Virus record (IMG/VR): IMGVR_UViG_3300021142_000014
Coordinates: 35,714-99,713 of that record
Reading direction: 5' to 3' (one strand)
DNA: 64,000 bases
From: a virus
Each line of letters begins with the position of its first letter. The first letter of the stretch is position 1. Under the pieces are notes generated by a model. It had not been told where the DNA came from, ran no database searches, and saw only the letters and a program-made list of their open reading frames with translations. This document shows, piece after piece, positions 6,032 through 63,246 of the stretch. A program made the position numbers and the translations under genes.

Positions 6032-6040
6032 GTCAAACCT

Positions 6041-6856: not shown

Positions 6857-6908
6857 TTTATTTACCTATTTTCTATAATTGTTATATCGTCACGTTGACG
6901 CTTGTACT

Positions 6909-6938: not shown

Positions 6939-6943
6939 ATTAC

Positions 6944-20432: not shown

Positions 20433-20450
20433 AATATTTATGTGGAGTAA

Positions 20451-20560: not shown

Positions 20561-20784
20561 TATTTGCTCTTTTTTACATTATCCTTTCGGAATTGTTCTG
20601 CTTTTTTGAGCAAATTTACAATATATTCTACAAAATCTTCAAGTTCTTTAAGATTTTTGTCAGTCTTACTGCCAACGGCCACAGTCTTACCAATTAAAGT
20701 ACTGTGCATTTGACCACTAAGAATCATGTCCATAAGATCTCTATGGATTTGATCATAATCGTTTTTCTTGTTCTTGCCTGTCAT
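20560..20784 (-). CDS. Hypothetical protein
   Basis: Start revised to ATG 20784 (AAGGA RBS). Confidence 0.65.
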   Translation of the reverse strand: MTGKNKKNDYDQIHRDLMDMILSGQMHSTLIGKTVAVGSKTDKNLKELEDFVEYIVNLLKKAEQFRKDNVKKSK

Positions 20785-20792
20785 TTTTTCCT

Positions 20793-21182: not shown

Positions 21183-21250
21183 GATTTCTCCTAACACTAT
21201 ATGGATAAGTACATTAATTTTTTATAGAGCCTCCTTGTGTAAGTAAATAA

Positions 21251-47584: not shown

Positions 47585-48334
47585 TTAAATTATGTCTCCG
47601 GTAACAACCCAAACATTTTGTGAACCAATTTGATTACCAATCCATATAGCAGTTGCAGTACTGTATATTTGTCGAAGTTGTGGGTTGTTACCATTATTTA
47701 AGGAACCTGTTGAAATAATAGTTGCTCCACCAGAGAAAGTTACAGTACCACTAGTCATTTGAATAAATGTAACTTGTTGTCCATAACCAATACCACTGGC
47801 AGGCAATTGGATAGCACAATTACCACTAATTTGAACAATGTTGTTAATGTCTGTAGAATTAGCAATATACGTTGCTGCCCCATAATTAGTATCCCAAATA
47901 TATTGAACTGATCCAGCGGGAATATAATTTGACCAATATGGCGCTGAGCTAGTTCCTGAAGCACTGGAAATAAAGAATTGACCACTAGCAGTAGGTGATG
48001 GAAAATCACCATTGTTTATCTGGTTTATAATACCAAAATCAGTGATGAGCGGACCAGCAACCCATGGAACAGTTCCACTAACACCAGTAGTTACAGGGCC
48101 AAACCCACCTTCTGCTTGGCGTTGTACAATAGCAACAGTAGATGTTCCGCTGCTTGTTACATAAATGATTTCTTGTGTTCCGGTAGCACCATAATATCCT
48201 GGATTAAGTACTACTGGGACGTATGTTCCAGCCACTGGTGTAGGCCAATTAGTACCGGTAATAGTGGTTTGACCACCATTAACAATACCAGAAGCAATGC
48301 CATAGGCAAAATCTAAACGAGAACGTGTTGCCAT
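47585..48334 (-). CDS. Tail-fibre-type structural protein
   Basis: EIIYVT....V.R..EG N-terminus; C-terminal LP...GQ.V..IQ...G.VTF...L..YS.A...W.V.GD fibre-tip domain. Confidence 0.7.
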   Translation of the reverse strand: MATRSRLDFAYGIASGIVNGGQTTITGTNWPTPVAGTYVPVVLNPGYYGATGTQEIIYVTSSGTSTVAIVQRQAEGGFGPVTTGVSGTVPWVAGPLITDFGIINQINNGDFPSPTASGQFFISSASGTSSAPYWSNYIPAGSVQYIWDTNYGAATYIANSTDINNIVQISGNCAIQLPASGIGYGQQVTFIQMTSGTVTFSGGATIISTGSLNNGNNPQLRQIYSTATAIWIGNQIGSQNVWVVTGDII

Positions 48335-48846: not shown

Positions 48847-49044
48847 TTATGGTTGTGGATCTGGGTTTACAAAAGTAGTGCCGTTATACGTCCAACCAAT
48901 AGATGCTGGGTTGTCAACAGTGTATTCAACAGCGTTTACAGCATCTATCATTGATGGAACGGCATTTAGTGCTATTTCAAGACTGTTGGCTACTATTACG
49001 TTTATTACTACGTTATTAGCGTCAAGAATGGCAAAAGTTAACAT
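48847..49044 (-). CDS. Small fibre-associated protein
   Basis: FAILD.NN.V.NVIVA...A.IGWTY.G..F..P motif. Confidence 0.7.
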   Translation of the reverse strand: MLTFAILDANNVVINVIVANSLEIALNAVPSMIDAVNAVEYTVDNPASIGWTYNGTTFVNPDPQP

Positions 49045-51406: not shown

Positions 51407-51826
51407 CTAAAGGCTGTATTTACTAATGATGCAATCTACTTCTTGTTCAATAGTTAAACCATCTTTAATTATAAAATCGACGTAATTTATTGGGTCTTGC
51501 CAAAGGGTATTAGTGTCCTCAAAACGGCTTTTTTTGATACGGTCCATCCAGATAAGAATGTCTGGTTTGCCAAAAGCCTCTCTTGCCTCTTCCGTAGGGC
51601 AAACAAAATCCACAATTATGTTATGACCTTGGCGTTCTAAAAGTCTTGCCATCTCACCAAGCCTGCGTGCTTGTTCAACCCTGTCATCGTTTGAGAACCC
51701 AAGATCTGAATTAATTGTTGCCCTAACCTCATCAGCATTCAAATGGATTACAGGTATTTTTTCTTTTAAACCATTTGCTAGAGCAGTTTTACCCGATCCA
51801 GGAAGCCCAATAATCTGGATAATCAT
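51407..51826 (-). CDS. cysC: Adenylyl-sulfate (APS) kinase, PAPS-forming
   Basis: GLPGSGKT, LNADEVR..INSDLGFS..DR.EQARR, IVDFVCP. Confidence 0.88.
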   Translation of the reverse strand: MIIQIIGLPGSGKTALANGLKEKIPVIHLNADEVRATINSDLGFSNDDRVEQARRLGEMARLLERQGHNIIVDFVCPTEEAREAFGKPDILIWMDRIKKSRFEDTNTLWQDPINYVDFIIKDGLTIEQEVDCIISKYSL

Positions 51827-52407
51827 TAATGGTAGAATTTTGTTATTGCCCAGCGCACTCCACTGATAACTGGTTCTACTTGGTGTGCATAAGGAAAGTG
51901 TGCAGGGAAAATAATTAATTGCCCTTTCTTTGGTTTAATTTTTAAATCAAATTCAACAAAATTAATTTCTCCACCTTCGTAATCATTGTTAAGATAATGT
52001 GTTAAAGAAAAAGTTCTTTTTTCAAACATAGCACCACGACCCCAGTCAATATGTGCTTTGTAATGATGACCTATTTCATATTTTAGAATTTGGTATGCAT
52101 CAGATCCGATAGTATCTGTATGGTACTTTTCACAATAATCGTCTACATATGCCTTATAAGCATTATCAAAATGTTCTCTTATACTATCTATTATTTTGTT
52201 CCTACCATCATTGGAAATACCCATAAGCTTTACTTTTCTAGCTTCTGGAATATTTATGTTTTCTCCAACATAGGAATGTGGAGCCCAATTTAGAGAACCA
52301 TTTTTAATATGCTCTTCCCATTCAGGAACCATATTGGAAATATTTTCTCCTACATTGCTATAACTTATTATTCCTGGTGCTAGTATTTCTCTTTTTATTT
52401 TATCCAC
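51826..52407 (-). CDS. 2OG-Fe(II) oxygenase, prolyl-4-hydroxylase-like
   Basis: ILKY..G.HYKAHID (HxD), R.FS...YLNNDYEGGE, FP..F.Y.H.V.PV.SG.R. Confidence 0.92.
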   Translation of the reverse strand: MDKIKREILAPGIISYSNVGENISNMVPEWEEHIKNGSLNWAPHSYVGENINIPEARKVKLMGISNDGRNKIIDSIREHFDNAYKAYVDDYCEKYHTDTIGSDAYQILKYEIGHHYKAHIDWGRGAMFEKRTFSLTHYLNNDYEGGEINFVEFDLKIKPKKGQLIIFPAHFPYAHQVEPVISGVRWAITKFYH

Positions 52408-52417
52408 AATTTACCTT

Positions 52418-53113
52418 TTATTTTTTAACTGTAACCATAAACTCAAGAGGTGATTCAAATGTTTCGCTCCACACTGAGTCATCAAGCAATGGTTCTACGT
52501 GTTTAAACATTCTGACTGGAGTAGTTGTTACTAAAACTCCACCCTTTTTTAGAAGAATAGATGATGCGGTTAAAATTTCTTTTATAACATCTAGTCCGTC
52601 TTCGCCACCAGCTACTGACGTTAAATCGTAAGGAAGAGTATCCACTTTTGAAAGATCATCTGGAATGGGTATGCATGGATAACCTGCAAGGATAAAATCG
52701 ACCTGACCATGAAGATGTTTGAGATTATCAATTGAATCCAGAGCACTACACATCACTGGAATGAATTTAGAATTGCTTTTATTTATTTGCTCTTTAAAAC
52801 CATCTGCATTCTTTGTAGTCCAAAAAAATGGCTTTTCATATTTCTCTACACCATAAATTACTGAATTGGGGAATTCTATTGCCATCGCTATGCCGAGCAT
52901 GCCTGATCCAGCACACATGTCTATTACGGTAAGGCCTTCTAATGGATTAATCTTTTCTTTTACAAAAAACAACATGTTTTCAAAAAACACATCAATTCCA
53001 TAAGCCTCTGCATAAACACCCTCACCAATGGCTATTTGCAATCCACGAAACTCGTAAAAGCCGTCATCGTATGCTTTTTGATTTAAGGGCAATTCAAATT
53101 GTTCTCTAGGCAT
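52418..53113 (-). CDS. PrmC/HemK-like SAM methyltransferase with altered NPPY motif
   Basis: F.GL...IG.GV, IDMCAGSG, DFILAGYPCIP at the NPPY position, GGEDGLDVI. Confidence 0.8.
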   Translation of the reverse strand: MPREQFELPLNQKAYDDGFYEFRGLQIAIGEGVYAEAYGIDVFFENMLFFVKEKINPLEGLTVIDMCAGSGMLGIAMAIEFPNSVIYGVEKYEKPFFWTTKNADGFKEQINKSNSKFIPVMCSALDSIDNLKHLHGQVDFILAGYPCIPIPDDLSKVDTLPYDLTSVAGGEDGLDVIKEILTASSILLKKGGVLVTTTPVRMFKHVEPLLDDSVWSETFESPLEFMVTVKK

Positions 53114-53123
53114 ATTTTGTCTC

Positions 53124-53699
53124 CTATTTTGATTCTATAGCCCACATAGGCATTATGTCCACAACTAAATTAATCCTTGGTGTTGTTCCATTGTTATCAA
53201 CTGCATGGCGTTTAACATTATTTATCTCCCAGATTTCCCCTGGCTTCATGTTTATAGTTTCGCCATCAACCCATGTTTCACATTGAGGATTAGTTATTAT
53301 CGGTATTTGATGTCTATGTACAGCACTAAAATATTGTCCAAGATCTATATGAATATAGATATTGGTTCCAGCTGGCAATAAGAAATAAAATATTTTAGCT
53401 GCTTTACCATCGCAGTCTTTTTCTAATTTATCGATTATTGGTTTAGTTAATGCCCAAAGTTCTTTATCTTTACATTCAAATTCTGGCGTGAAAGGTGCCG
53501 GATAGAACCAATTCCTGGGGTAATCCTGCACTATTAGAATTTTACCATGTTGATGGTGGGTTAGATTTAACCGTTCATCAAAGTATTTATCTTCATTCTT
53601 GCTCAACAAATAATCCGCAATTTTACCAACGTCTACGTTGCCTTTGTTAATAAAATTAAATGGATTATTGTATTTGCTCCAAACTTTAGTTAATGTCAT
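53124..53699 (-). CDS. Aspartyl/asparaginyl beta-hydroxylase-like 2OG oxygenase
   Basis: L.AG..I..HID, HR.QIPIITNP, MKPGE.WEINN...H.V.N.G...RINLVVD. Confidence 0.88.
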   Translation of the reverse strand: MTLTKVWSKYNNPFNFINKGNVDVGKIADYLLSKNEDKYFDERLNLTHHQHGKILIVQDYPRNWFYPAPFTPEFECKDKELWALTKPIIDKLEKDCDGKAAKIFYFLLPAGTNIYIHIDLGQYFSAVHRHQIPIITNPQCETWVDGETINMKPGEIWEINNVKRHAVDNNGTTPRINLVVDIMPMWAIESK

Positions 53700-54413
53700 T
53701 TAAGGCTCATAACCAAAAGTTTCAAATTCCCAAGACCATTCTTTTTGTATAGTTTCAAGTTCTTGCTTGCCAAATATATTTTTGTATGAAATGTGTTGTG
53801 GTTTGTAATCGCTTTTTGCTTTATAAGGTATTGTAATTGCTGGCAACCCAACCATTGGTAAAATTTTATTTATTTCGTTTTCTATTCCATTTTCATATCG
53901 TAAAATATGATCAACTAATATTTCACCATTTGATGAATATATCCATTTAGTACTATTAAGGGCATAAAATTCTGGTTCTCTTGCATAAAAAAAACGATAA
54001 TTTAAATAATCTTTTTGCTTTCCAGATAATGCATCCCAGTCATAACCGCCACCATATTCAAATGGATCAGCATCATTGTTTGTTTTTACTCCCCAATATT
54101 CTCTCATTTTATGAAAAAACCATGAAGTTATGATTTCATATGGGTGCCTTACAAAAACAGCAGAGATTGTATTATCTATTTTTTCTTCACCAAAAACTTT
54201 ACAGACTTCTTCATAAGAAGCATGATTCTCAAGCTGTGTATCACCATAAATAAAGTTTCTTGGTATATGGCCATATTGTGATTCATCAATAGGCATCATT
54301 GGCGTGCAGGTAGAGTTTTCTGGAACTAAATTATATAATGATAATTCTAACGAGCTGCCGCCGACTTTATAATTCTTTAACAATAAAAAGTTATTATCGG
54401 GAGAATAGATCAC
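53700..54413 (-). CDS. Sulfotransferase (family 2-like)
   Basis: 5'-PSB K..KVGGSS, 3'-PB FVRHPY....S.F, I.RYE, C-terminal E.E.FGY. Confidence 0.82.
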   Translation of the reverse strand: MIYSPDNNFLLLKNYKVGGSSLELSLYNLVPENSTCTPMMPIDESQYGHIPRNFIYGDTQLENHASYEEVCKVFGEEKIDNTISAVFVRHPYEIITSWFFHKMREYWGVKTNNDADPFEYGGGYDWDALSGKQKDYLNYRFFYAREPEFYALNSTKWIYSSNGEILVDHILRYENGIENEINKILPMVGLPAITIPYKAKSDYKPQHISYKNIFGKQELETIQKEWSWEFETFGYEP

Positions 54414-54685
54414 TACTCACCCTTGTTTATTTTTTCCAATTCAAGGTTGGACAATGTAATAGCACTTTTTATGTCTGTGGCAATACCGACTACTTTTACT
54501 TTACCTGGGTTAGTACCTCTAGAAACAATATAGAATTTATAATTCTTATCTTTTTCTATAAATAGTCTTGTTGCAGTACGTGATTCCAGAAAACGAAGAT
54601 AACGTGTTTGATTTTCATTGTTTTTAGGGATTACCATCGTTTTCCAACGACGCTTTTCATTGTATATTTTATTTTTCTTAAACAT
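54413..54685 (-). CDS. Hypothetical basic protein
   Basis: 90-aa ORF, TAATG-coupled. Confidence 0.55.
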   Translation of the reverse strand: MFKKNKIYNEKRRWKTMVIPKNNENQTRYLRFLESRTATRLFIEKDKNYKFYIVSRGTNPGKVKVVGIATDIKSAITLSNLELEKINKGE

Positions 54686-55398
54686 TAGCTTTCTACCTTA
54701 TAAACTTTTTTACGCCATATATTTTTTCTATACCAACCAACTTGGTAATCATAGCTTCTTTCGGGATGGTTTTCCATACTTCTTTTCCATATCCCTTTCT
54801 TCTTTTTAGCTACCCAGTCTTCTCTTTTGAATGGAATAACTTGAAGAATCGGAGTACCTTTAGGAATAGCACCTTCAAAACCCTTTATAACGCTAAATGG
54901 TATGTTACCGCCATGCATAAAGAAGTCACCGTCTACGATACCAGTGAATGTCATAAATGGTAGATCAAACCTATTAAATGGGTGTGTCAAAATTGCACTA
55001 TATCCTTCAGGAAGGTGGAAAGCATACTGAGTTTGCCAAATAAAATGCTCTTCATCATGACCAGCTGGCGATGGCATTGGGTCTGTAGTCATTGGAGGTC
55101 TATTGCTAATTGGCATTGGTTGTTGTTTGCAACGGATAGATGGTCCATTCTCTGTTTGCTCTACATAAACTTCTTGTGGCAAAGACATATAAAATCCAGT
55201 TGTCATAGCATCTAAGAATGGTATACACATCTTAAGACCCATAGCAGGCATATTGTTATTTGGATCTTTATTATCTAAAAACTTTGGTGTTTTTTTATAC
55301 CAATCAGGTACGATTTCAACCATAGCTCCTATACCCTTTTTTTCTACGGTTGGGGAGCCTTCATAATAAAGTACGTTTTTATTATTCTTTTTAAACAT
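54685..55398 (-). CDS. Conserved hypothetical protein, paralog A (possible dUTPase-like fold)
   Basis: PDWYK, K.CIPFLDA.T.G, P.GYS...THP.NR.DLPF, I.KGTP..QVIPFKRE.W, Y....W.KK.Y. Confidence 0.75.
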   Translation of the reverse strand: MFKKNNKNVLYYEGSPTVEKKGIGAMVEIVPDWYKKTPKFLDNKDPNNNMPAMGLKMCIPFLDAMTTGFYMSLPQEVYVEQTENGPSIRCKQQPMPISNRPPMTTDPMPSPAGHDEEHFIWQTQYAFHLPEGYSAILTHPFNRFDLPFMTFTGIVDGDFFMHGGNIPFSVIKGFEGAIPKGTPILQVIPFKREDWVAKKKKGIWKRSMENHPERSYDYQVGWYRKNIWRKKVYKVES

Positions 55399-56078
55399 TA
55401 TTTATACACCTTCTTCTTCCAGAAGTTTTTTCTATAATGACCATTCAACAACTCAGATATAGGAGCTTTCACAGTAGTATCAGCTATGTCCCAAAGACCT
55501 TTTGTAGATTTAGCTACCCATTCTTCTCTTTTAAATGGTATCACTTGAGCTATAGGGGTGCCTTTAGGTATTTCACCTTCAAAACCTTTTTTAATAAAAA
55601 AAGACATGTTAGCACCGGGCATTACATAATCGTCTACCACCGCACTGCTTGTTAAGAATGGTAGATCCCAACGATTCAATGGGTGTGTGTAAAGTAATGA
55701 ATAACCATCAGGAGGTCTTACAGTTATGTTAGCAAACCAAATAAAATGTTCATCTTCATATCCCTCTGGGACTGGTGATGGATCAGTTACTGCACTTGGC
55801 CTATTGTTAACGACAGGTTCTTTTGGATTATTATAACGTATAATTACACCGTTTTCTGTTCTTTGAACATATACACTTTCTTCAAGAACTATGGTGTAAC
55901 CGAGCGTAAGGCTTTCAAGGAATGGGATGCAATGTTTAACTCCAGGCCATTCTTGACCATTTTCGTCAGTTACCCATCTTTTTGTTTTTTTGTACCAATC
56001 AGGTACAACGGAAAGCATAGGCCTCATGTGATCTATAAAACCATTACGACTTTCGTATTTTATGATTTGACGCGACAT
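55398..56078 (-). CDS. Conserved hypothetical protein, paralog B
   Basis: Same motif set as 54685..55398. Confidence 0.75.
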   Translation of the reverse strand: MSRQIIKYESRNGFIDHMRPMLSVVPDWYKKTKRWVTDENGQEWPGVKHCIPFLESLTLGYTIVLEESVYVQRTENGVIIRYNNPKEPVVNNRPSAVTDPSPVPEGYEDEHFIWFANITVRPPDGYSLLYTHPLNRWDLPFLTSSAVVDDYVMPGANMSFFIKKGFEGEIPKGTPIAQVIPFKREEWVAKSTKGLWDIADTTVKAPISELLNGHYRKNFWKKKVYK

Positions 56079-56404
56079 TACTCTTCGTCTTCCTCTTCCT
56101 CATTAACCTCTAGTTCTTGTTCAACGGCTTGCCATTTACCTATTGGACAGAATGCATTAGGTAATTTTACTTTTCCAGGCATAAAGCAACCACATTCTTT
56201 ACATAGCATGGATGACTTACGAATGCGTGGACAATCTTTGCAAATTGCAAGGCGTTCACTAGCTAATTCGTCTTCTACTCTACCAATTTTTTTATTGAAT
56301 AGATCCCATGGTCTAGCTGGGCGTTGTTCAGATGTTTCTTCGGAAGTATTCTTTAGATTTTCTAAATATAATTCCCAAGGCGTTTGCTTTGGTTGTCCGT
56401 TCAT
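56078..56404 (-). CDS. Six-Cys small protein (DUF6171-like)
   Basis: RPWD, ERL.IC..CP, C.ECGCFM..K..L..A.CP.GKW. Confidence 0.75.
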   Translation of the reverse strand: MNGQPKQTPWELYLENLKNTSEETSEQRPARPWDLFNKKIGRVEDELASERLAICKDCPRIRKSSMLCKECGCFMPGKVKLPNAFCPIGKWQAVEQELEVNEEEEDEE

Positions 56405-56406
56405 TT

Positions 56407-56640
56407 TTAACGGTATTCACTCGCAAATTCACCGGCTTCTTCATCGTAACCAAGACCAACTTGGATAAAAGCGCCGCGTTCATGATCTGTAATATCAATT
56501 ATTATTGGTTGGCTTGTCATAATTGCTGCATTTCTAGCACTGCAACTTTGAACATGAACTACTTGACCATCAAGGATAAATGCCAAACGGTTAGTAGTAT
56601 TGATAGCTATCATTGGATCTTCTGGGATTGGAATTGCCAT
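56407..56640 (-). CDS. Small fibre chaperone-like protein, paralog 1
   Basis: RLAFILDG.V..V..C..R.AA...SQP...DIT...G..YD. Confidence 0.7.
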   Translation of the reverse strand: MAIPIPEDPMIAINTTNRLAFILDGQVVHVQSCSARNAAIMTSQPIIIDITDHERGAFIQVGLGYDEEAGEFASEYR

Positions 56641-56641
56641 A

Positions 56642-56881
56642 TTAACTCCTATTATTTTCTAGGCTTTCACCATCAAAATCAGTGAAAGTATCGGTAGCTA
56701 CATCATACTGAAATCCTACCGGTATGTCAAGTCCTGTTATGTTTCTTGCTATTGGCTTACTTAGTAATAAAGCTGCAAATCTCTCTGAGCATTCAATTAC
56801 TTCTTGTACAAAACCATCAAGAATAAAAGCAATCCGATACATAGGAGGCGTATTATTTAGGTCTTCTTCTTTGTTTGTCAT
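56642..56881 (-). CDS. Small fibre chaperone-like protein, paralog 2
   Basis: RIAFILDG.V.EV..C.ERFAALLLSKP...IT...G..YD. Confidence 0.7.
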   Translation of the reverse strand: MTNKEEDLNNTPPMYRIAFILDGFVQEVIECSERFAALLLSKPIARNITGLDIPVGFQYDVATDTFTDFDGESLENNRS

Positions 56882-56897
56882 GGTCTCTTTCTATTGA

Positions 56898-58049
56898 TTA
56901 TATCGCTGAGAATGGTCCTACAGTACTACCCTGGGTGGCACTTCCGCCAACCGGTGAATCAATGATACCAACACTAACATTACCAGTTGGAGCAGTCTGA
57001 TTACTAGACAAAGTTCCCAGAGATGTTACCAATGCAGAATCACTAAAGGCAGTTGCTGTAATATTGCTGTTAGTAGTAACGATTTGGATAGAGTTAATCT
57101 GAGCTGTTGTGCTATTTGAAGGTCCTTGTAGAACTCCTGTTGCAATTGTAGTGATTGTACCACCTACAGATTGTAGCAAGCTTAGCTGGTTATAGTACTG
57201 TGTTGTGTAGTTGGCTGTGTATCCAGCGCAAGCACCATATGACGAGCAAGAATACGATGTACATTGCGTAGCGTATCCTCCACAAGCTGTTCCATAACTT
57301 ATGCAGGGTGGGAAATACGGTGGAAAGAATGGTGGTGGGAAATACGGTGGAAAGAATGGTGGTGGGAAGTAAGGTGGGAAGAATGGAGGAAAGAATGGTG
57401 GAAAGAATGGTGGTGGGAAGTAAGGTGGGAAGAATGGAGGAAAGAATGGTGGAGGTGGTGGTGAGTAGCTAAGGTTGTTTGGTCTTGGAATTTCAACAGG
57501 TCGAGTATTTGGTGAATCTTCTTTTGTACGACGCTTTCGCTTAGGCAACGTTGTAGTTGCTCCCTTAGCATTTGGATCACCATAAGCACTGCTGTAACCA
57601 TAACCTGTGCAAACAGTGTAATAGCTTTGACACACTGGTCCATAGCCTGCGCATGTATAACCTGTGCAAGGATATCCACCAGTACAAGTATAGCTTGTTA
57701 TGTTATTTTGTGAGTAAGCATTGTTAACAACTGCCCACCAGTTACCAGTACTTGTCCACCAAAAAGCAATTCCAGTACCGTTTGAAGCACTCTTCAACGT
57801 CATTGTTGCGCTAGCTTTGTAAGGTATTGTAGCTAATGGGTAAGAACTAGCTGCTGTTGATGTAGTTGCTGATCCGCTTGTTGCATACCATACACCAGTT
57901 TGTGCAACCCAAAGTTGTCCACCTGGGACAGCTGTTCCTAATGATCCTGATGTTGTTCTTGCAAAAAGGTCACTAATAGGTGCTAAAGATCCTGATAGGA
58001 GCCCATAAGCACGGGCTGCAAGGTCACTTAGTGCTGAGAATAATGGCAT
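56898..58049 (-). CDS. Virion-type beta-sandwich protein with Cys-ladder stalk and Pro/Phe/Tyr-rich knob
   Basis: MP.....AARAYG N-terminus, D.F.R...SLG...W..G.W; Cys at 122,128,133,140,147 and 249,256,263,268,274; 52-residue P/F/Y tract. Confidence 0.8.
   Translation of the reverse strand: MPLFSALSDLAARAYGLLSGSLAPISDLFARTTSGSLGTAVPGGQLWVAQTGVWYATSGSATTSTAASSYPLATIPYKASATMTLKSASNGTGIAFWWTSTGNWWAVVNNAYSQNNITSYTCTGGYPCTGYTCAGYGPVCQSYYTVCTGYGYSSAYGDPNAKGATTTLPKRKRRTKEDSPNTRPVEIPRPNNLSYSPPPPPFFPPFFPPYFPPPFFPPFFPPFFPPYFPPPFFPPYFPPPFFPPYFPPCISYGTACGGYATQCTSYSCSSYGACAGYTANYTTQYYNQLSLLQSVGGTITTIATGVLQGPSNSTTAQINSIQIVTTNSNITATAFSDSALVTSLGTLSSNQTAPTGNVSVGIIDSPVGGSATQGSTVGPFSAI
57306..57461 (-). repeat. 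Coding tandem repeat for the PPFF/PPYF tract
   Basis: Two exact 27-bp units (ggtgggaaatacggtggaaagaatggt) plus a 42-bp duplication at 51-bp spacing. Confidence 0.9.
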
Positions 58050-58074: not shown

Positions 58075-61000
58075 TTAGAACTTAGTCTGTCCGAGTAGCA
58101 TAACATACGTATTAGCTGCTGTACATATTAATGTAATAGCATAAAAGTCATAGTTTACTGTTGCATCTGCAGCAGTCCATATTGAACCACCCTGGTAATA
58201 CGCTGTTACGGTGTAAGTGTTAGTATATGCTGTTCCATGGGCAGGTAGCGTAGTACCACCGTTAACAGTGTAACCATTGATCGTAAACCCTGATGGGAGA
58301 TAGGCTGTAGAACCATTATTTGTACCAACAGTGACAGTAACGGCTTGACCAACAGTAGTTGGAGCATTGGTTATTTGGATTTGCCATGCTGATGTTGGAG
58401 CAGCAGTGTAGACATAGACTCCACCAGAAACGGTGTTGAGAACAGCAGCAGCGCTTGAAGATACTACACCAGAACTAACTACAACCTGTTCTAGAGGCGC
58501 TACTAGCAATGGGTTAGTAGCATAAGGGATAACCCCACCAGTACCAGTTGTACCGCTTACAACAGGACCTGAGACCCACTGAGAACCACTATAGATAAGC
58601 ATTGCATTGGCAGTAGGTGCACCGCTTGATACTGTGTAACCTTGTAGTTTAGTTACTTTTGCATTACCTATTGTACCAGTAAGATCTCCACCGACTGCAG
58701 AACCACTGGTCATTACAGCAGAACCACTTACGGTAACAGCTCCACTGAATGAAACGTTACCTATTTGTGTACTTGTTCCTGATACTGTAAATCCACTGGC
58801 TACAACAACGTTTCCACCACTAGTAATTGTCATTGCATCATTAGCTGCATTATTAGTTACAAAGTGTATAGCATTGTTGCCATAAGTACCAATAGCTAGA
58901 TCTGTAGAGGCTGAAGCAAGGTAAACAGCACCTGCAATGTTAAATGCACCATTACCAGTAAAGTTACTGGAGTTCATACCAAACTCACCGTAGTTAGTAC
59001 CACTTGTTCCCAAGTTATTACTTACGTTTAGGTTAGTACTTGCAGATGTACCAGAGTTGGTATTTTGAACAATAACTTGGTTATAGTTGTTAACACTATT
59101 GTTAAAACCAGCCATGATGTTAACGTCAGAGTATGAAAGTCCTCCACCGAAGTTGATTGGTGGGTTAGTAGTAGGCGTGGTAGCGTTGATTGTGTAATTA
59201 ACGTTTAGAGCACCAGAAATAGTTTCTGTACCAGTTATGCTAACGTTTCCATTAACATTGAATGGACTATTAACATTCAAAGTACCGGTAACGGTTCCTC
59301 CACTAAGTGGAAGCTTGTTAGCATCACTACCAGAAAGTGTTACTACTTGCCCTGATAAAGTTGCAATGCTGCTTGTGTTAGTAGTTACATTACCTGAAGT
59401 AGTTGCATATTGACCACTAAGGGTTGCGTATTGTCCGCTAAGGTTTGCAACATTGGTATTAGTAGTATTTAGGTTACCACTAGTTGTGTTGTATGATCCT
59501 GAAAGGGTTACAAACTGTCCAGAAAGGGTTGCAAGCGATCCACTAGTAGCAGCAATGTTACTATTTGCTGTAACCATTTGCCCTGATAGCGTTGCAATAC
59601 TGCTTGTGTTAGTAGTTACAATACCACTTGTTGATACGTACTGGCCTGAAAGAGTAGCAAGGCTACCACTAGTAGCAGCAATATTAGCATTTGCTGTAAC
59701 CATTTGACCTGATAGGGTAGAAATGCTACTTGTATTAGTGGTTACAATTCCTGAGGTTGTAGCGTATTGACCACTAAGTGTTGCAAGGTTGCTATTGGTT
59801 GTAGTTATTGAACCACTCAGTGCTAACAAGTCTCCAGAAAGATTAGTAACTTGATTTTCTGCAATTTGTATACCACTAGTTGTAATGTTGCTTATACGAC
59901 CATAGCCATCTGTAGTAATAATTGAAACATTATTGTTTGAACCATAAGTACCTGATGTACCTATAGTTGCAAGATCAATGCTATCTGGGTTAACAACAAT
60001 TCTACTTGAGTTTGCAGTGACAACATCAATTGTATTACCAGTTTTGGTAAGACCACCACCAGCATTAATTTCTCCAGCACCTGAGAATTGTGAAAATTGA
60101 ATAGTATCAGTACCAATAACAATGTCACCATTGGGACCAGTACCTGCAGAGGCCATAATATATCCATTATTAGCATTTACTGTACCGCTCTGTACGAATA
60201 TAAAATCACCAGCAGTTACTTGACCACTAATTGAATCATTGTAATCAGATGCACGAGTTAGTTTCCAAGGAATTGATGAACTACCTGTAACTGTAACTAC
60301 ATAAACACCATTTTGGGTTCCTGTAGTTTGGTCTTTAACTAGAATACGAGCACCACTAACAAATCCACTAGCTGCTATAGAATCTATTGCAAACCCAGCA
60401 TTAGTGGTTGAAGTTAGAGTAGCTCCAATGCCGTAACCACCATCTTGGTCTATTGTTCCACCACTGTATGTAGCTGTAAGGTTGCCTGTGGTTCCAGCAA
60501 ATGCAGGAGCGTGTACGTTGAGCTGTGCAACTGCAGCATCTACATATTGCTTGTTAGCTAACTCGTAAGTACCTGTAGGAAATGTTGGGTAGTAAGTAAG
60601 TCCAGAAAAAGTTGTGGTGCCTGTAAAAGTTTTAATACCACTAATAGTTTGTGTTGTTCCTAGAGTTACTGTGCTACCGCTAAGAGTAGCAAGATTAGAG
60701 TTAGTTGTATTTAAGCTACCACTAATTGAAGCAATATTTGATTCATCGGTAACTTGTTTTCCAGAGATTGTTGCTATGTTAGTTGTATTAGTAGAAATAG
60801 TTCCACTAAGTGCAGTGGAGATTGTTGGGTTAGGGTAAGTACCTTGGAGGTCACCACCGGCTGTTACGCCACTTATACTAGTAAGAACATTTATTCCACT
60901 TACAGTAAGAGTACCTGGAACATTAACATTGTGGTTGGCAGTACCTAAAACAATTTGATCTTGTGTAGAAGAAGTAGCACCAGCACCAGTGTGATCTGTA

Positions 61001-63246
61001 CCAATAGCAACAGATCCAGGTGCAGTTGCATTGGTTTGGTAACCAATTGCTGTAGCATAATTGCTACCAGTATTATTAATATTGGCTAGATAACCAATTG
61101 ATACACCAAATTCATTGTAATAATAACCGGCTTCATAACCAATAGCTACACCATCAAAATTTTGAGTAGAACCAGCATAAGCACCAATAGCTACACCATT
61201 ATTGTTACTAGATTGACCAGCATAGTTACCAATAGCTACACCAGCAGAATTGACGCTGGATATGGGAGTGTTAGCTCCTAGTGCAATATTAGTAGAATTT
61301 ACAGAAAGTGTACCAGTAACAGTTAAGTTACCAGAAATAGTACCACCTGTTCTTGGAAGAGCAGCGTAAGCTACTCCAGAAACTGTAACTAAGCTACCAC
61401 TAATTGAAGCAATATTTGATTCATCGGTAACTTGTTTTCCAGAGATTGTTGCTATGTAACTTGCTTGATTGGTAACGATACCAGAAGTGGTAGCGTATTG
61501 TCCTGAAAGCGTGGCAATGTTTGCTTCATCAGTGACTTGTTTTCCGCTTATTGTAGCTATGTAACTAGTATTATTAGTAACAATCCCTGAAGTTGTAACG
61601 TATTGACCTGATAGTGTAGCAATATTAGAAGCATCTGTAGCTTGCTTGCCAGATACACTAGCAATGTTTCCAGATATGCTAGTCATATCTGTTACTAGGT
61701 TATTTACTTGACTTTCAGCAATCTGGATTGTGTAAAGTTGTGCGTTAGTAACACGACCATTTGAATCGATAGAAAGCAATGGAGTTTGTGTAGCAGATCC
61801 ATAAGTACCACTAACACCACTAATTGTTCTAAGAGTTGGGTTAGGGTATGTCCCAGTTAAATCTCCACCAGCAGTTGTGCCAGAAAAGATTGTTCTTCCT
61901 GAAGTAGTTACAAATTGACCACTTAGAGTAACAAGAGATCCTGAGAGTGAAGCAATATTAGCTTCGTCAGTTACTTGCTTTCCACTAATAGTAGCAACAC
62001 TTCCTGATAATGTAGAGAGGTTTGAAGCGTTAGTTGAGATACCGTTATTAGCAGTGATCATTTGACCACTAAGTGTGGCAATATATCCAGTTTGGTTGGT
62101 TACAATACCTGACGTAGTATTGTATGAGCCAGAAAGTGATGCGAATTGACCACTAAGATTGGCAACATTAGAGTTAGTTGTAACTAAGTTACCTGAAAGA
62201 GTTACGTATTGACCAGAAAGTGTGGCGATGTTATTTGCTTCAGTAGCAAGAGTATTGGCTTGACCACTAACTACTACATTGAGTCCTGATATTTGTGTAT
62301 TTACACTAGCGAACCCTGAGTCTGTAGTAGTCGATAGATTATCTATTCTTGTACTTAAACCACTAACTTGAGTGTTTAAAGAATTAATGTTTGTAGTTTG
62401 ACCACTAACAGTAGAATTTAGAGTAGAAATACTTACAGATTGACCACTAGTTGTTACAAATAATGCATTGATTTGCCCACTCTGTGTATTAATTTGCCCA
62501 CTCTGTGTATTAATTTGCCCACTCTGTGTATTAATTTGCCCACTCTGTGTATTGATGTTTGTACCATTAGTGTTAATTTGGGTCTGTAAACCACTAATAG
62601 TTGTATTTAATCCACTTACTGCACTTGTTAGAATAAATATATTAATACCTGAAACATTGGTTATACGACCAGCATTATCCCATGAAAATGTTGGCAAGAA
62701 GCTTCCGCCACCACCAGAGAACGTGTCGCCAGTGTATATTGCTTTAAGTGTTGGATTAGGATAAGTACCAGCAAGGTCTCCACCAGCAGCTGTGCCTGAT
62801 ACTACTAAGGTTGAATTGCCAATTATGCTTGTTGCAAGGTTAAATTGAGCTTGTTCAATAGCTGTAGCAACAGGAAAAACATTATAATCGCTAGAAGATC
62901 CTACTGAGTGCGAAGTTGCAGTTGTTCCGTCATAGCCACGGCCATTGGTACCACTAACGTTATAAACAAAAATAGTGGTATTAACACCAAGTGAGATGGC
63001 ACCGCTAGCACACAGTATCTTTTCTTCGCTGCCTAGACCGTAATCTACAACAAGCGTAAAAGGTCCACTAGTTCCTAGTGGATTAGTGGTATTATATCCG
63101 CCTGCGCTAACTTCATACCATCCCGTGGTATTAGCTACAGTTATTGTTTGTCCGCTTGCGAATGCATAGTTAAGCGATGCTGAAAGATACGTAGGTGCAG
63201 CACCACCAGGGTATGATCGTATTACACTGGAATCTGGGAGGGCCAT
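58075..63246 (-). CDS. Long tail fibre (trimeric coiled-coil, YadA-like head repeats, GGDL.GTYPNP repeats)
   Basis: 1723 aa; heptads such as IATLSGQ; GVAIG/ATAIG/SVAIG repeats; NKQYVD; RILVKDQT..QNGVY..WKLTRA.D module. Confidence 0.88.
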   Translation of the reverse strand: MALPDSSVIRSYPGGAAPTYLSASLNYAFASGQTITVANTTGWYEVSAGGYNTTNPLGTSGPFTLVVDYGLGSEEKILCASGAISLGVNTTIFVYNVSGTNGRGYDGTTATSHSVGSSSDYNVFPVATAIEQAQFNLATSIIGNSTLVVSGTAAGGDLAGTYPNPTLKAIYTGDTFSGGGGSFLPTFSWDNAGRITNVSGINIFILTSAVSGLNTTISGLQTQINTNGTNINTQSGQINTQSGQINTQSGQINTQSGQINALFVTTSGQSVSISTLNSTVSGQTTNINSLNTQVSGLSTRIDNLSTTTDSGFASVNTQISGLNVVVSGQANTLATEANNIATLSGQYVTLSGNLVTTNSNVANLSGQFASLSGSYNTTSGIVTNQTGYIATLSGQMITANNGISTNASNLSTLSGSVATISGKQVTDEANIASLSGSLVTLSGQFVTTSGRTIFSGTTAGGDLTGTYPNPTLRTISGVSGTYGSATQTPLLSIDSNGRVTNAQLYTIQIAESQVNNLVTDMTSISGNIASVSGKQATDASNIATLSGQYVTTSGIVTNNTSYIATISGKQVTDEANIATLSGQYATTSGIVTNQASYIATISGKQVTDESNIASISGSLVTVSGVAYAALPRTGGTISGNLTVTGTLSVNSTNIALGANTPISSVNSAGVAIGNYAGQSSNNNGVAIGAYAGSTQNFDGVAIGYEAGYYYNEFGVSIGYLANINNTGSNYATAIGYQTNATAPGSVAIGTDHTGAGATSSTQDQIVLGTANHNVNVPGTLTVSGINVLTSISGVTAGGDLQGTYPNPTISTALSGTISTNTTNIATISGKQVTDESNIASISGSLNTTNSNLATLSGSTVTLGTTQTISGIKTFTGTTTFSGLTYYPTFPTGTYELANKQYVDAAVAQLNVHAPAFAGTTGNLTATYSGGTIDQDGGYGIGATLTSTTNAGFAIDSIAASGFVSGARILVKDQTTGTQNGVYVVTVTGSSSIPWKLTRASDYNDSISGQVTAGDFIFVQSGTVNANNGYIMASAGTGPNGDIVIGTDTIQFSQFSGAGEINAGGGLTKTGNTIDVVTANSSRIVVNPDSIDLATIGTSGTYGSNNNVSIITTDGYGRISNITTSGIQIAENQVTNLSGDLLALSGSITTTNSNLATLSGQYATTSGIVTTNTSSISTLSGQMVTANANIAATSGSLATLSGQYVSTSGIVTTNTSSIATLSGQMVTANSNIAATSGSLATLSGQFVTLSGSYNTTSGNLNTTNTNVANLSGQYATLSGQYATTSGNVTTNTSSIATLSGQVVTLSGSDANKLPLSGGTVTGTLNVNSPFNVNGNVSITGTETISGALNVNYTINATTPTTNPPINFGGGLSYSDVNIMAGFNNSVNNYNQVIVQNTNSGTSASTNLNVSNNLGTSGTNYGEFGMNSSNFTGNGAFNIAGAVYLASASTDLAIGTYGNNAIHFVTNNAANDAMTITSGGNVVVASGFTVSGTSTQIGNVSFSGAVTVSGSAVMTSGSAVGGDLTGTIGNAKVTKLQGYTVSSGAPTANAMLIYSGSQWVSGPVVSGTTGTGGVIPYATNPLLVAPLEQVVVSSGVVSSSAAAVLNTVSGGVYVYTAAPTSAWQIQITNAPTTVGQAVTVTVGTNNGSTAYLPSGFTINGYTVNGGTTLPAHGTAYTNTYTVTAYYQGGSIWTAADATVNYDFYAITLICTAANTYVMLLGQTKF
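60712..61457. repeat. Exact 68-bp direct repeats (60712-60779 and 61390-61457) flanking the YadA-like module
   Basis: taagctaccactaattgaagc...agagattgttgctatgt identical in both copies; offset 678 bp, in frame. Confidence 0.9.
62471..62553. repeat. 21-bp coding tandem repeat x4 (INTQSGQ heptads)
   Basis: atttgcccactctgtgtatta repeated four times without spacers. Confidence 0.95.

What the first reader, a model, noticed from the sequence alone, without database searches (positions are those of the whole stretch)
51407..58049. Substrate-plus-tailoring island: extensin-like peptide followed by prolyl hydroxylase, Asp/Asn hydroxylase, sulfotransferase, APS kinase and methyltransferase
One tightly packed operon, with several TAATG junctions, runs: Cys-ladder/Pro-rich protein, two small paralogs, six-Cys protein, two larger paralogs, small basic ORF, sulfotransferase, Asp/Asn hydroxylase, PrmC-like methylase, P4H-like oxygenase, CysC. 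The knob begins S-P-P-P-P-P (the plant extensin hydroxylation motif) and carries 4 Tyr within PPYF units. P4H, a PAPS supply and a sulfotransferase are what Pro hydroxylation and Tyr or glycan sulfation would need. KRKRR could be a processing site, giving RiPP-like logic. Inference: a dedicated post-translational modification pathway for a virion appendage, rather than unrelated auxiliary metabolic genes.
Basis: partly seen in the sequence, partly recalled or inferred. Interest (0 to 1): 0.82.

Follow-up and report, generated by a model that had tools for sequence, protein, structure and literature searches.

The report
Phage fibre knob with tailoring enzymes
An uncultured phage of actinobacteria encodes, beside its tail fibre, a sugar-binding-type protein with a proline-phenylalanine knob. 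The gene is followed by a prolyl-hydroxylase-like enzyme and by a separate, mobile hydroxylase/sulfotransferase/kinase cassette, so the phage probably modifies its own host-recognition protein chemically, though no chemistry has been shown.

Summary
The gene string is real and tightly packed: 12 co-directional genes at 51407-58049, with four TAATG junctions.

It is not one pathway. It is three modules with separate histories.

1. **Lectin-fold protein and its partners.** The 383-aa protein resembles mycobacteriophage receptor-binding domains (Z 14.8). It has a hypervariable Cys/Tyr-rich insert. It travels with small 77-aa proteins, a DUF6171 protein and dUTPase-fold proteins (phrog_7084) in about 20 phage lineages.
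2. **P4H-like oxygenase plus a HemK-like methylase.** In this protein family only this lineage has these two genes in the operon together with the PPFF knob.
3. **Asp/Arg-hydroxylase-like, sulfotransferase and APS-kinase-like trio.** It recurs as a contiguous cassette in five more viral contigs that lack the lectin protein, and rearranged beside it in one complete 43-kb phage.

The P4H-PPFF link is supported. Of 50 other viral records with PPFF-type tracts, 46 carry P4H-like genes, often adjacent, against 2 of 31 lectin-family records without PPFF.

- The SPPPPP motif and the PPYF tyrosines are not conserved in sister strains.
- "CysC" is a short form that lacks the C-terminal half of the domain.
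- The methylase lacks the NPPY motif.

This scan already found PPFF plus hydroxylase arrays on other DNA. Here the tract sits in a new place, in an unrelated phage. I class it as a new variant of a known kind.

The parts
58075..63246 (-). 1723-aa tail-fibre-like protein directly upstream (context, not a tailoring gene)
   Evidence: Heptad-like repeats and weak YadA_head and ANG-1 matches. The C-terminal part is conserved in sister strains and in L018.
56898..58049 (-). 383-aa lectin-fold, receptor-binding-type protein. Residues 25-122 and 277-383 form one beta-sandwich. Residues 123-276 are an insert made of a Cys/Tyr ladder, KRKRR and a 52-residue PPFF/PPYF tract.
   Evidence: AF2 pLDDT is above 90 for the two flanks and 35-55 for the insert. 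VIA: CBM66 Z 16.8, Douge baseplate 8zdo_a Z 14.8, TM4 gp23 receptor-binding domain 9n6a Z 14.8. The family comprises 46 proteins and only this lineage has the Pro-rich insert.
57306..57461 (-). DNA encoding the PPFF/PPYF tract, the candidate prolyl-hydroxylase substrate
   Evidence: Most Pro-rich segment of the record. Repeat number and Y/F content differ among three strains. PPFF tracts co-occur with P4H-like genes elsewhere.
56642..56881 (-). 79-aa small protein, paralog 1 of the small-domain family
   Evidence: The family accompanies the lectin protein in 21 of 23 distinct loci. It has 549 clusters in the representative library. It is fused to a PF11397 glycosyltransferase in L037.
56407..56640 (-). 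77-aa small protein, paralog 2
   Evidence: Same family. No Pfam match. The nearest named Atlas clusters are tail-fibre assembly proteins, at a chance-level score of 0.82.
56078..56404 (-). 108-aa six-Cys protein, DUF6171-like
   Evidence: PF19668 7e-6 (26.7 bits, cut-off 27) and phrog_13558 1.5e-16. Found in 16 lectin-family loci and 9 PPFF loci.
55398..56078 (-). 226-aa dUTPase-fold protein (phrog_7084), paralog 1
   Evidence: phrog_7084 5e-27. Homologs lie in 19 PPFF/P4H loci.
54685..55398 (-). 237-aa dUTPase-fold protein (phrog_7084), paralog 2
   Evidence: AF2 pLDDT 89.8. The top 22 VIA hits are all dUTPase or dCTP-deaminase superfamily, Z 9.9-5.4, and the next row is Z 4.9 (TLP20), then 3.3. 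Cys58 is invariant. This matches the 'conserved cysteine, dUTPase fold' protein of the Syn9 dioxygenase array (PMC2938197).
54413..54685 (-). 90-aa basic ORF of unknown role
   Evidence: Homologs occur only in the sister strains and twice in L018, next to the trio genes.
53700..54413 (-). 237-aa sulfotransferase-like protein (trio member)
   Evidence: Sulfotransfer_2 5e-4 over its full length, and phrog_3347 2e-7. Invariant K-x-G-G and R-x-P...S motifs. Contiguous with the hydroxylase and kinase in L063-L066 and L069.
53124..53699 (-). 191-aa Asp/Arg beta-hydroxylase-family 2OG oxygenase (trio member)
   Evidence: PF05118 2e-12. The nearest solved relative is L-proline cis-4-hydroxylase, at 6e-3. 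H-x-D and a distal His are visible in the translation.
52418..53113 (-). 231-aa HemK-like class I methyltransferase with an altered motif IV
   Evidence: HemK 1e-4. (G/S)YPC replaces NPPY in all three strains. Found only in this lineage.
51826..52407 (-). 193-aa collagen-type prolyl-4-hydroxylase-like 2OG oxygenase
   Evidence: PF13640 3e-18. Bacillus anthracis P4H 1e-7 and PBCV-1 P4H 5e-4. 34% identical to P4H-like genes of PPFF arrays.
51407..51826 (-). 139-aa short APS-kinase-like P-loop kinase (trio member)
   Evidence: PF01583 7e-18, but the match ends at residue 84. 55-67% identical to the kinase domain of 251-269-aa proteins in other trio cassettes, which add a nucleotidyltransferase-like domain.

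Best explanation
The island lies in the tail-fibre region of an uncultured myovirus of Actinobacteria. It is a mosaic of three modules.

**Module 1.** A lectin-fold, receptor-binding-type protein carries a hypervariable Cys/Tyr-rich insert on a long beta-hairpin. Its usual companions come with it: two small 77-aa proteins, a DUF6171 Cys protein and two dUTPase-fold proteins.

**Module 2.** In this lineage the tip of the insert is a basic motif plus a (PPFF)n tract. The operon has also gained a collagen-type prolyl-hydroxylase-like oxygenase and a HemK-like methylase. I infer that the oxygenase hydroxylates prolines of the tract in the host cytoplasm before virion assembly.

**Module 3.** A mobile three-gene cassette holds an Asp/Arg-beta-hydroxylase-family oxygenase, a sulfotransferase and an APS-kinase-like kinase. 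It follows a hydroxylate-then-sulfate logic, with the kinase turning host APS into PAPS. Its acceptor is not identified. It may be this protein or another fibre protein, but it need not be.

**Shown:** gene content, folds and co-occurrence. **Inferred:** every chemical step.
For: - **Fold and position of the 383-aa protein:**
- **Module 1 is conserved.** The small protein is present in 21 of 23 distinct loci, DUF6171 in 16 and phrog_7084 in 8.
- **The Pro-rich insert is lineage-specific.** Only the three strains of this lineage have it among 46 family members.
- **A natural control.** The complete 43-kb phage G001 has the lectin protein without the insert, has the trio, and has no PF13640 gene anywhere.
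- **PPFF tracts go with P4H-like genes.** 46 of 50 records with PPFF-type tracts carry PF13640, mostly 5-12 copies, against 2 of 31 lectin-family records without PPFF. Uncorrected Fisher p is 2e-15. 49 of 78 loci have a P4H-like ORF inside the locus, at a median distance of 446 bp. The tracts sit on 7 different protein backgrounds, and 5 of these have a P4H-like gene within 1 kb.
- **Shared accessory genes.** The same loci hold phrog_7084, DUF6065 and DUF6171.
- **Independent lineage.** Those phages share no detectable sheath homolog with this virus.
- **The trio is a unit.** It is contiguous in L063, L064, L065, L066 and L069, and rearranged in L018. The kinase is 55-67% identical across lineages, while the hydroxylase and sulfotransferase are 31-40% identical. 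This fits a fixed donor and a changing acceptor.
- **Published predictions.** Iyer et al. 2010 predicted hydroxylation followed by sulfation of co-encoded tail-collar or collagen-like proteins for beta-hydroxylase + sulfotransferase + PAPS-synthetase neighbourhoods. They also noted a dUTPase-fold protein with a conserved cysteine in the Syn9 dioxygenase array (PMC2938197).
- **Precedent in actinophages.** Methylation of a mycobacteriophage tail protein is needed for progeny infectivity (PMC13445384).
Against: - There is no biochemical or proteomic evidence at all.
- P4H-like genes also follow a lectin-family protein that has no Pro-rich insert (L021). The enzyme is therefore not strictly tied to PPFF.
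- The PPFF/P4H association is not corrected for shared ancestry. Most of the 50 records may belong to one group of about 110-kb phages.
- Here the P4H-like gene lies 4.5 kb from the substrate gene and is a single copy, not an adjacent array.
- The trio occurs without any detectable lectin protein, and no single phage protein is shared by all trio loci. This fits a host or small-molecule acceptor as well as a virion one.
- The nearest cultured-phage relatives of the kinase sit in DNA or nucleotide-sugar contexts.
- The kinase lacks the C-terminal half of the APS-kinase domain, and LDGD is LNAD.
- The record holds no ATP sulfurylase.
- Virion location of the 383-aa protein is inferred from fold and position only.
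Confidence: 0.45

Rival explanations
1. One dedicated pathway. All five enzymes act in turn on the knob of the 383-aa protein, giving proline hydroxylation, Asp/Asn hydroxylation, sulfation with phage-made PAPS and methylation, possibly after cleavage at KRKRR.
For: All genes lie in one tight co-directional string. In this lineage the methylase and P4H-like genes sit inside the trio, between the hydroxylase and the kinase. In L018 the trio genes are interleaved with the module 1 genes. In L037 the small domain is fused to a glycosyltransferase of the family that, from my own knowledge, glycosylates hydroxyproline of Skp1. This hints that module 1 proteins recruit tailoring enzymes.
Against: Five contigs carry the trio with no lectin protein, small domain or DUF6171 within 8 kb, and none in the whole records held. 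L018 has the trio but no Pro-rich insert. The tyrosines and the SPPPPP motif are not conserved. I saw no EGF-type hydroxylation consensus (C-x-D/N-x4-F/Y-x-C) in the insert when reading the translation. No protease or Hint domain is present.
Confidence: 0.12
2. Accessory metabolism. The oxygenases, sulfotransferase, kinase and methylase are auxiliary genes parked at the end of the structural module. They act on a host cell-envelope component or a small molecule, for example to alter the receptor on infected cells or to make a sulfated metabolite. The neighbouring fibre proteins are not their substrates.
For: Most lectin-family loci have no enzymes at all. The trio moves between unrelated phages and lies next to an endolysin, DUF2061 membrane proteins and a tryptophan-halogenase-like gene in L064, L066 and L069. 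The Asp_Arg_Hydrox family also holds free-proline hydroxylases and, from my own knowledge, lipid hydroxylases such as LpxO. The sulfotransferase resembles carbohydrate-type families. Iyer et al. proposed secondary-metabolite roles for cyanophage dioxygenase arrays.
Against: This does not explain why PPFF-tract proteins sit within a few hundred bases of P4H-like genes in dozens of loci and on several protein backgrounds. It also does not explain why, in this family, the P4H-like gene appears in the operon of the only lineage that has the tract.
Confidence: 0.25
3. Nucleotide or DNA modification. The dUTPase-fold proteins, the P-loop kinase, the methylase and the 2OG oxygenases act on nucleotides or on phage DNA, as in thymidine hypermodification pathways.
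For: phrog_7084 has a dUTPase/dCTP-deaminase fold, with motif-III-like G-I-V-D-G-D and a conserved Gln where motif IV would lie. Kinase homologs in Xylella phage Salvo and Ralstonia phage RSL1 lie beside topoisomerase and MazG genes or nucleotide-sugar genes. In haloarchaeal viruses phrog_7084 lies two genes from a ribonucleotide reductase gene. HemK-like methylases are related to N6-adenine DNA methylases (my own knowledge).
Against: The oxygenases belong to peptide-modifying families (P4H and Asp/Arg hydroxylase), not to TET/JBP or AlkB. A sulfotransferase has no known role in DNA modification (my own knowledge). The genes lie in the fibre region, far from the replication genes at 1932-9440. 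The methylase lacks the NPPY motif that amino-methylating enzymes use.
Confidence: 0.08

Closest known systems
PPFF-tract proteins with arrays of P4H-like oxygenases in about 110-kb freshwater phages
   Same: A Pro-Pro-Phe/Tyr-Phe polymer sits in a fibre-region protein. P4H-like 2OG oxygenase, dUTPase-fold (phrog_7084/DUF6065) and DUF6171 genes share the gene string.
   Different: Here the tract is an internal insert at the tip of a Cys ladder in a lectin-fold protein. In the other phages it is a C-terminal tail after FN3 or before a Hint domain. Here there is one P4H-like gene instead of 5-12. The phage is an unrelated myovirus. A sulfation cassette and a methylase are added, and neither was found in the 78 PPFF loci.
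Beta-hydroxylase + sulfotransferase + PAPS-synthetase neighbourhoods with tail-collar or collagen-like proteins (Iyer, Abhiman, de Souza, Aravind 2010, PMC2938197)
   Same: An Asp/Pro beta-hydroxylase-family oxygenase, a sulfotransferase, a PAPS-forming enzyme and a methyltransferase are encoded beside a phage-fibre-type, non-enzymatic protein. The same hydroxylate-then-sulfate logic was predicted there.
   Different: Those are bacterial operons with full PAPS synthetases, and the methyltransferase is fused to a phytanoyl-CoA hydroxylase. Here the genes are in a phage and the kinase is a 139-aa short form. The candidate substrate has no Collar or collagen-like repeat. That prediction has not been tested either.
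Chlorovirus PBCV-1 prolyl 4-hydroxylase (PDB 5c5t) and Bacillus anthracis P4H (3itq)
   Same: Same enzyme family by sequence. PBCV-1 is a virus that encodes both the enzyme and proline-rich repeat proteins that the enzyme hydroxylates in vitro (my own knowledge).
   Different: Those substrates are PAPK-type or GPP-type repeats, not PPFF. Sequence similarity is limited to the catalytic core (E 1e-7 and 5e-4). No activity is known for any phage enzyme of this kind.
Post-translational modification of actinophage virion proteins: host MepM methylation of mycobacteriophage tail protein Gp34 (PMC13445384), and virion glycosylation by phage glycosyltransferases
   Same: A tail protein of a phage of Actinobacteria needs a chemical modification made in the infected cell in order to bind the host.
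   Different: There the enzyme is host-encoded and the modification is methylation at an ELS motif. Here the enzymes are phage-encoded and the predicted chemistry is hydroxylation, with or without sulfation.
RiPP pathways (leader/core peptide with recognition element and tailoring enzymes)
   Same: A candidate substrate gene is followed by tailoring enzymes. A small domain is sometimes fused to an enzyme (L037), as RiPP recognition elements are.
   Different: The substrate is a 383-aa folded protein, not a short precursor. No leader, protease, cyclase or radical SAM enzyme is present. The small domain shows no detectable similarity to PqqD-type elements.

Membership tests
Collagen-type prolyl 4-hydroxylase (Pfam 2OG-FeII_Oxy_3) | Domain match above the curated threshold | tested here: met
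   67.1 bits against a cut-off of 27. The best solved relatives are the B. anthracis and PBCV-1 P4Hs.
Collagen-type prolyl 4-hydroxylase (Pfam 2OG-FeII_Oxy_3) | H-x-D ... H iron triad and a basic residue about 10 positions after the distal His | tested here: met
   H-I-D, a distal His in Y-A-H-Q-V and an Arg 10 residues later are visible in the translation and in the alignment to 3itq.
Collagen-type prolyl 4-hydroxylase (Pfam 2OG-FeII_Oxy_3) | Hydroxylation of peptidyl proline | not testable with these tools
   Needs an enzyme assay or mass spectrometry.
Adenylyl-sulfate kinase (CysC) | P-loop and domain match above threshold | tested here: met
   G-L-P-G-S-G-K-T; 65.6 bits against 21.1.
Adenylyl-sulfate kinase (CysC) | Full-length domain, including the C-terminal substrate-lid half | tested here: not met
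   The match covers profile positions 4-91 of 152 and residues 2-84 of 139. All PDB alignments stop near residue 84.
Adenylyl-sulfate kinase (CysC) | L-D-G-D motif | tested here: not met
   It reads L-N-A-D in the alignment to 2yvu. The D-L-G-F-S...D-R stretch downstream is kept.
Sulfotransferase (Sulfotransfer_2 / Gal-3-O-sulfotransferase-like) | Domain match above the curated threshold | tested here: not met
   20.7 bits against a cut-off of 22, although the match runs the full length. phrog_3347 gives 2e-7. The homolog in L064 matches Sulfotransfer_1 at 2.5e-3.
Sulfotransferase (Sulfotransfer_2 / Gal-3-O-sulfotransferase-like) | PAPS-binding loops (5'-phosphosulfate K-x-G-G-S/T; 3'-phosphate R-x-P...S) | tested here: inconclusive
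   K16-V-G-G and R89-x-P...S97 are invariant in four homologs. I assigned them to the PAPS loops by eye, not from a structure.
Aspartyl/asparaginyl beta-hydroxylase family (PF05118) | Domain match above threshold | tested here: met
   47.5 bits against 22.6.
Aspartyl/asparaginyl beta-hydroxylase family (PF05118) | EGF-type acceptor consensus (C-x-D/N-x4-F/Y-x-C) in the proposed substrate | tested here: not met
   I found no such motif when reading the Cys-rich insert of the 383-aa translation by eye; no pattern search was run. The family also contains free-proline hydroxylases, so the acceptor is open.
PrmC/HemK N5-glutamine methyltransferase | SAM-binding motif I and overall similarity | tested here: met
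   D-M-C-A-G-S-G, and HemK hits at 1e-4 over residues 17-181.
PrmC/HemK N5-glutamine methyltransferase | N-P-P-Y motif IV | tested here: not met
   Replaced by G-Y-P-C or S-Y-P-C in all three strains.
dUTPase / dCTP deaminase superfamily (for the 226-aa and 237-aa paralogs) | Fold | tested here: met
   Z 9.9 (rmsd 2.6, 123 residues aligned) down to 5.4 for 22 consecutive superfamily members. The next row is Z 4.9 (TLP20), then 3.3. Foldseek probability is about 1.0 at E 1e-3.
dUTPase / dCTP deaminase superfamily (for the 226-aa and 237-aa paralogs) | The five dUTPase sequence motifs, including the C-terminal P-loop-like motif V | tested here: inconclusive
   A motif-III-like G-I-V-D-G-D and a conserved Gln186 are present. 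Motifs I, II and V could not be recognised. There is no sequence match to any solved dUTPase.
PPFF-tract / P4H-array system of freshwater phages (this scan) | Pro-Pro-aromatic-Phe polymer in a fibre-region protein | tested here: met
   A 52-residue tract.
PPFF-tract / P4H-array system of freshwater phages (this scan) | P4H-like gene(s) and dUTPase-fold helper genes in the same gene string | tested here: met
   One P4H-like gene and two phrog_7084 genes lie in the operon. Homologs of both are in the PPFF loci.
PPFF-tract / P4H-array system of freshwater phages (this scan) | FN3 carrier and/or Hint cap, and a tandem array of several oxygenases | tested here: not met
   The carrier is a lectin-fold protein with an internal insert. 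No FN3 or Hint match was found. There is a single P4H-like gene in the island.
RiPP biosynthetic cluster | Short precursor with a leader, a processing protease and a recognised recognition element | tested here: not met
   The substrate candidate is a folded 383-aa protein. No protease is present. The small domain has no Pfam match.

The most novel reading that the evidence does not exclude
A phage chemically tailors the tip of its own receptor-binding protein with several enzymes that it encodes itself. Prolines of a (PPFF)n knob are hydroxylated. A second hydroxylase and a sulfotransferase, fed by a phage kinase, add sulfate esters, and a HemK-like enzyme methylates. The small 77-aa proteins act as adaptors that bring the enzymes to the protein, as their fusion to a hydroxyproline-type glycosyltransferase in another phage suggests. 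As far as I know this would be the first sulfated or hydroxyproline-bearing phage adhesin. It would also give a natural substrate to the abundant orphan viral "P4H" genes.
Probability: 0.15. Interest if true: 0.85.

Novelty: new variant of a known kind. Interest (0 to 1): 0.6.

Why it matters
Prolyl-hydroxylase-like 2OG oxygenases are among the commonest unexplained enzyme genes in aquatic phages. A defined candidate substrate makes their function testable with one peptide and one enzyme.

This window places the PPFF tract on a new carrier, in a phage unrelated to those where the pairing was seen before. That strengthens the case that tract and enzyme belong together.

It also separates out a compact hydroxylase/sulfotransferase/kinase cassette that moves between phages. 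That cassette is a phage counterpart of a bacterial neighbourhood predicted in 2010 to hydroxylate and sulfate fibre-like proteins.

If virion adhesins are modified in this way, host-range prediction from sequence alone would miss part of the picture.

Tried and rejected
**Nothing found**
- Nucleotide search and 383-aa protein search against 50,697 cultured phages.
- The sulfotransferase has no homolog there.
- A profile of phrog_7084 against PDB sequences.
- Literature searches for DUF6065, DUF6171, PPFF with phage, and Gnt1/Skp1 with phage.

**Tools and limits**
Viral-contig loci were used instead.
- The first family alignment was too diverse for the search for related loci.
- The search for fused forms of the small domain returned only the query's own protein.
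I did not rerun it.

**Ideas dropped**
- I first guessed that phrog_7084 was a cupin oxygenase. The fold search rejects this: cupins score Z 3.0 or below.
- The link between phrog_7084 and DUF6065 is weak by hhalign (E 1e-3, probability 20%). I keep it only as a lead.
- I considered that the kinase might be a 5-hydroxymethyluracil DNA kinase. The two papers read give no link to APS-kinase-like proteins, so I dropped it.
- The C-terminal nucleotidyltransferase-like domain of the long kinases has no copy in this genome (best E 0.008, outside the window).
- The 65-aa ORF at 48847-49044 is not a convincing member of the small-domain family (7 bits).
- The Atlas lead to tail-fibre assembly proteins scores at chance level (0.82) and has no Pfam support.

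Full report
**Setting.** The window is bases 35714-99713 of a 99.7-kb IMG/VR virus record, estimated 69% complete. It encodes a tail sheath, a baseplate wedge protein, a DnaE-like polymerase and a DnaB-like helicase. It also encodes WhiB (2e-12) and an Rpf-type transglycosylase domain (2e-10). The polymerase is closest to those of Rhodococcus and Mycobacterium phages, at 34-35% identity. The virus is therefore a myovirus, most likely of Actinobacteria. Almost all genes in the window read on the minus strand.

**Observation.** Four junctions are TAATG and one is TAGTG. The other gaps are 0-25 nt. The consensus scan shows no excess of terminator-like or promoter-like sites over shuffled sequence. 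The 383-aa protein has ten cysteines at 122, 128, 133, 140, 147 and 249, 256, 263, 268, 274, with mirrored spacing. It also has a KRKRR motif and a 52-residue tract of P, F and Y only.

Family assignments hold with caveats:
- The P4H-like, Asp_Arg_Hydrox and APS_kinase matches are above the Pfam cut-offs.
- The sulfotransferase is just below its cut-off (20.7 against 22 bits) but matches phrog_3347 at 2e-7.
- The kinase aligns to CysC only over its first 84 residues, and L-D-G-D reads L-N-A-D.
- The methylase resembles HemK at 1e-4, but (G/S)YPC replaces NPPY in all three strains.

**The 383-aa protein.** It belongs to a family of at least 46 proteins. They share an N-terminal and a C-terminal region, and between these lies a middle part of 48-229 residues rich in Cys, Tyr, Ser, Thr and Gly. 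AlphaFold places residues 25-122 and 277-383 in one beta-sandwich with pLDDT above 90. Two long strands lead out to the insert, which is modelled at low confidence. The sandwich matches carbohydrate-binding modules and lectins. It also matches the receptor-binding domain of mycobacteriophage TM4 gp23 and a Douge baseplate protein, both at Z 14.8. The gene follows the 1723-aa fibre gene directly. This points to a receptor-binding or adhesin role, but virion location is inferred, not shown.

**Relatives and co-occurrence.**
- Two sister strains carry the same island (L003-L016 and L017). Their tracts differ in repeat number. Three of the four tyrosines are phenylalanine in one sister strain. SPPPPP reads APIPPP in one sister strain and APPPP in the other.
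- Among 23 distinct lectin-family loci, the small 77-aa protein is present in 21, DUF6171 in 16 and phrog_7084 in 8. These proteins are the family's real companions.
- Outside this lineage, enzymes from the island appear only in L018 and L021.
- L018 belongs to a complete 43-kb genome with terminal repeats. It has the lectin protein without any proline insert. It has the sulfotransferase, the hydroxylase and the kinase in a different order, interleaved with the companion genes. It has no PF13640 gene anywhere.
- L021 has a lectin-family protein without a Pro-rich insert. This is followed by two P4H-like genes, a DUF6065 gene and a PF11397 glycosyltransferase.
- In L037 the small domain is fused to a PF11397 glycosyltransferase, and in L038 it abuts one. 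From my own knowledge, PF11397 is the family of the Skp1 hydroxyproline GlcNAc-transferase.

**The two larger paralogs.** The 237-aa protein folds with pLDDT 89.8. Its 22 best structural matches are all dUTPases or dCTP deaminases, Z 9.9 to 5.4. The next row is Z 4.9 (TLP20), then 3.3. The family has an invariant cysteine and no Pfam annotation. Homologs lie beside the fibre genes of haloarchaeal myoviruses. Iyer et al. [quoted passage not shown] This is very probably the same kind of protein. Its role is unknown.

**The trio.** A search with the sulfotransferase found five more viral contigs: L063, L064, L065, L066 and L069. In each, hydroxylase, sulfotransferase and kinase are contiguous in that order. 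No lectin protein, small domain or DUF6171 is detectable near them or in the whole records held. These records are fragments.

In L063 the cassette follows a 924-aa tail fibre. In the L064 type it follows an endolysin, and in L066 and L069 a tryptophan-halogenase-like gene follows it.

The kinase is 55-67% identical across lineages. The other two genes are 31-40% identical. In the five contigs the kinase is 251-269 aa long and carries an extra C-terminal domain with H-x-G-H and I-S-x-T motifs. This domain matches CTP_transf_like at the threshold. The arrangement recalls bifunctional PAPS synthases, but this is speculation. The window's kinase lacks that domain, and the genome has no copy of it and no ATP sulfurylase.

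Homologs of the kinase in cultured phages lie in DNA or nucleotide-sugar contexts.

Iyer et al. described bacterial neighbourhoods of beta-hydroxylase, sulfotransferase, PAPS synthetase and methyltransferase genes with tail-collar or collagen-like proteins. They predicted hydroxylation followed by sulfation of those proteins. The phage cassette fits that logic. Its acceptor here is open.

**PPFF tracts and P4H.** A codon-pattern scan for PPFF-PP(F/Y)F-PP found at least 120 viral stretches, and 80 loci were fetched. The tracts occur in several settings:
- as C-terminal tails after FN3-like domains;
- in small proteins;
- as linkers in proteins of about 1000 aa;
- before Hint-type domains.

Of 50 such records, 46 carry PF13640 genes, mostly 5-12 copies. 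Among lectin-family records without PPFF the figure is 2 of 31. Within the fetched loci, 49 of 78 contain a P4H-like ORF, at a median distance of 446 bp from the tract gene. The non-repeat parts of the tract proteins fall into seven sequence clusters, and five of these have a P4H-like gene within 1 kb. The same loci hold phrog_7084, DUF6065 and DUF6171 genes, but no sulfotransferase, kinase, methylase or lectin-family protein.

These phages have a DnaE-like polymerase 34-37% identical to the window's, and no detectable sheath homolog. The uncorrected Fisher p of 2e-15 overstates the evidence, because many of the records are related. The pairing is still seen on several protein backgrounds and in at least two unrelated phage groups. 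Earlier follow-ups in this scan reached the same pairing on other genomes.

**Reading.** The island is a mosaic.
I put it near even odds.
- The methylase entered with the P4H-like gene and may act on the same protein, but nothing tests that.
- The trio is a separate mobile unit with a plausible hydroxylate-then-sulfate chemistry and an unknown acceptor.
- Tyrosine sulfation of PPYF, the extensin analogy and KRKRR processing find no support in the comparisons.

**Novelty.** The chemistry is predicted, not shown, and similar predictions exist: Iyer et al. 2010, and earlier findings of this scan. Three things are new here:
- the carrier, an internal knob on a lectin-fold receptor-binding-type protein;
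- an independent phage lineage;
- the recognition of the three-gene sulfation cassette in phages, together with its kinase-nucleotidyltransferase fusion.

Noticed in passing
L037:11037-12146 (also L038:5080-6224): The small 77-aa domain that accompanies the lectin-family protein is fused to the N-terminus of a PF11397 'GlcNAc' glycosyltransferase in one phage. In another phage it directly abuts such a gene. This suggests an adaptor role for the small protein.
   Followed up: partly
L064:8656-9414, L066:8608-9417, L063:6955-7710, L065:5028-5804: In other phages the APS-kinase-like domain is fused to a roughly 115-residue nucleotidyltransferase-like domain with H-x-G-H and I-S-x-T motifs (CTP_transf_like, 2.6e-4). 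The arrangement recalls bifunctional PAPS synthases. The window's kinase lacks this domain.
   Followed up: partly
L077, L101, L102, L134, L149: PPFF-type tracts run straight into a Cys-led segment that looks like the start of a Hint/intein-type self-cleaving domain. I judged this from the translation only.
   Followed up: no
window 57228-57686: The ten cysteines of the 383-aa protein have mirrored spacing (6,5,7,7 | 7,7,5,6) on the two arms that flank the PPFF tract. AlphaFold extends the flanking strands as a long hairpin but models the ladder itself at low confidence. Some family members have no cysteine at all (P0041, P0042).
   Followed up: partly
window 20169-21197: WhiB (PF02467, 2e-12) and an Rpf-type transglycosylase domain (PF06737, 2e-10) point to an actinobacterial host.
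   Followed up: yes
window 16880-20160: A cassette of Methyltransf_24, GT17, a phrog_2170 glycosyltransferase and GT2 genes lies 30 kb from the island. It could also act on virion proteins.
   Followed up: partly
G000:C1:48-311 (outside the window): A second PF13640 (P4H-like) gene lies at the very start of the virus record. Its neighbours are cut off by the contig end.
   Followed up: no
L066:9728-11251 and L069:9865-11418: A tryptophan-halogenase-like gene (phrog_2928, 3e-103) sits just after the hydroxylase/sulfotransferase/kinase cassette. This echoes the halogenase-dioxygenase pairing described for cyanophage Syn9.
   Followed up: no
window 49079-51298: The 739-aa polycationic repeat protein directly downstream has N-terminal G-W-x-G-G motifs followed by short P-H-x-P-P-x-Y stretches. 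It is conserved in the sister strains only.
   Followed up: no
window 47585-48334, 45104-47581 and 58075-63246: Between the two closest strains the enzyme genes are 91-100% identical, except the sulfotransferase at 79%. The fibre and two downstream structural proteins are only 50-76% identical. This is a mosaic pattern typical of host-range modules.
   Followed up: partly
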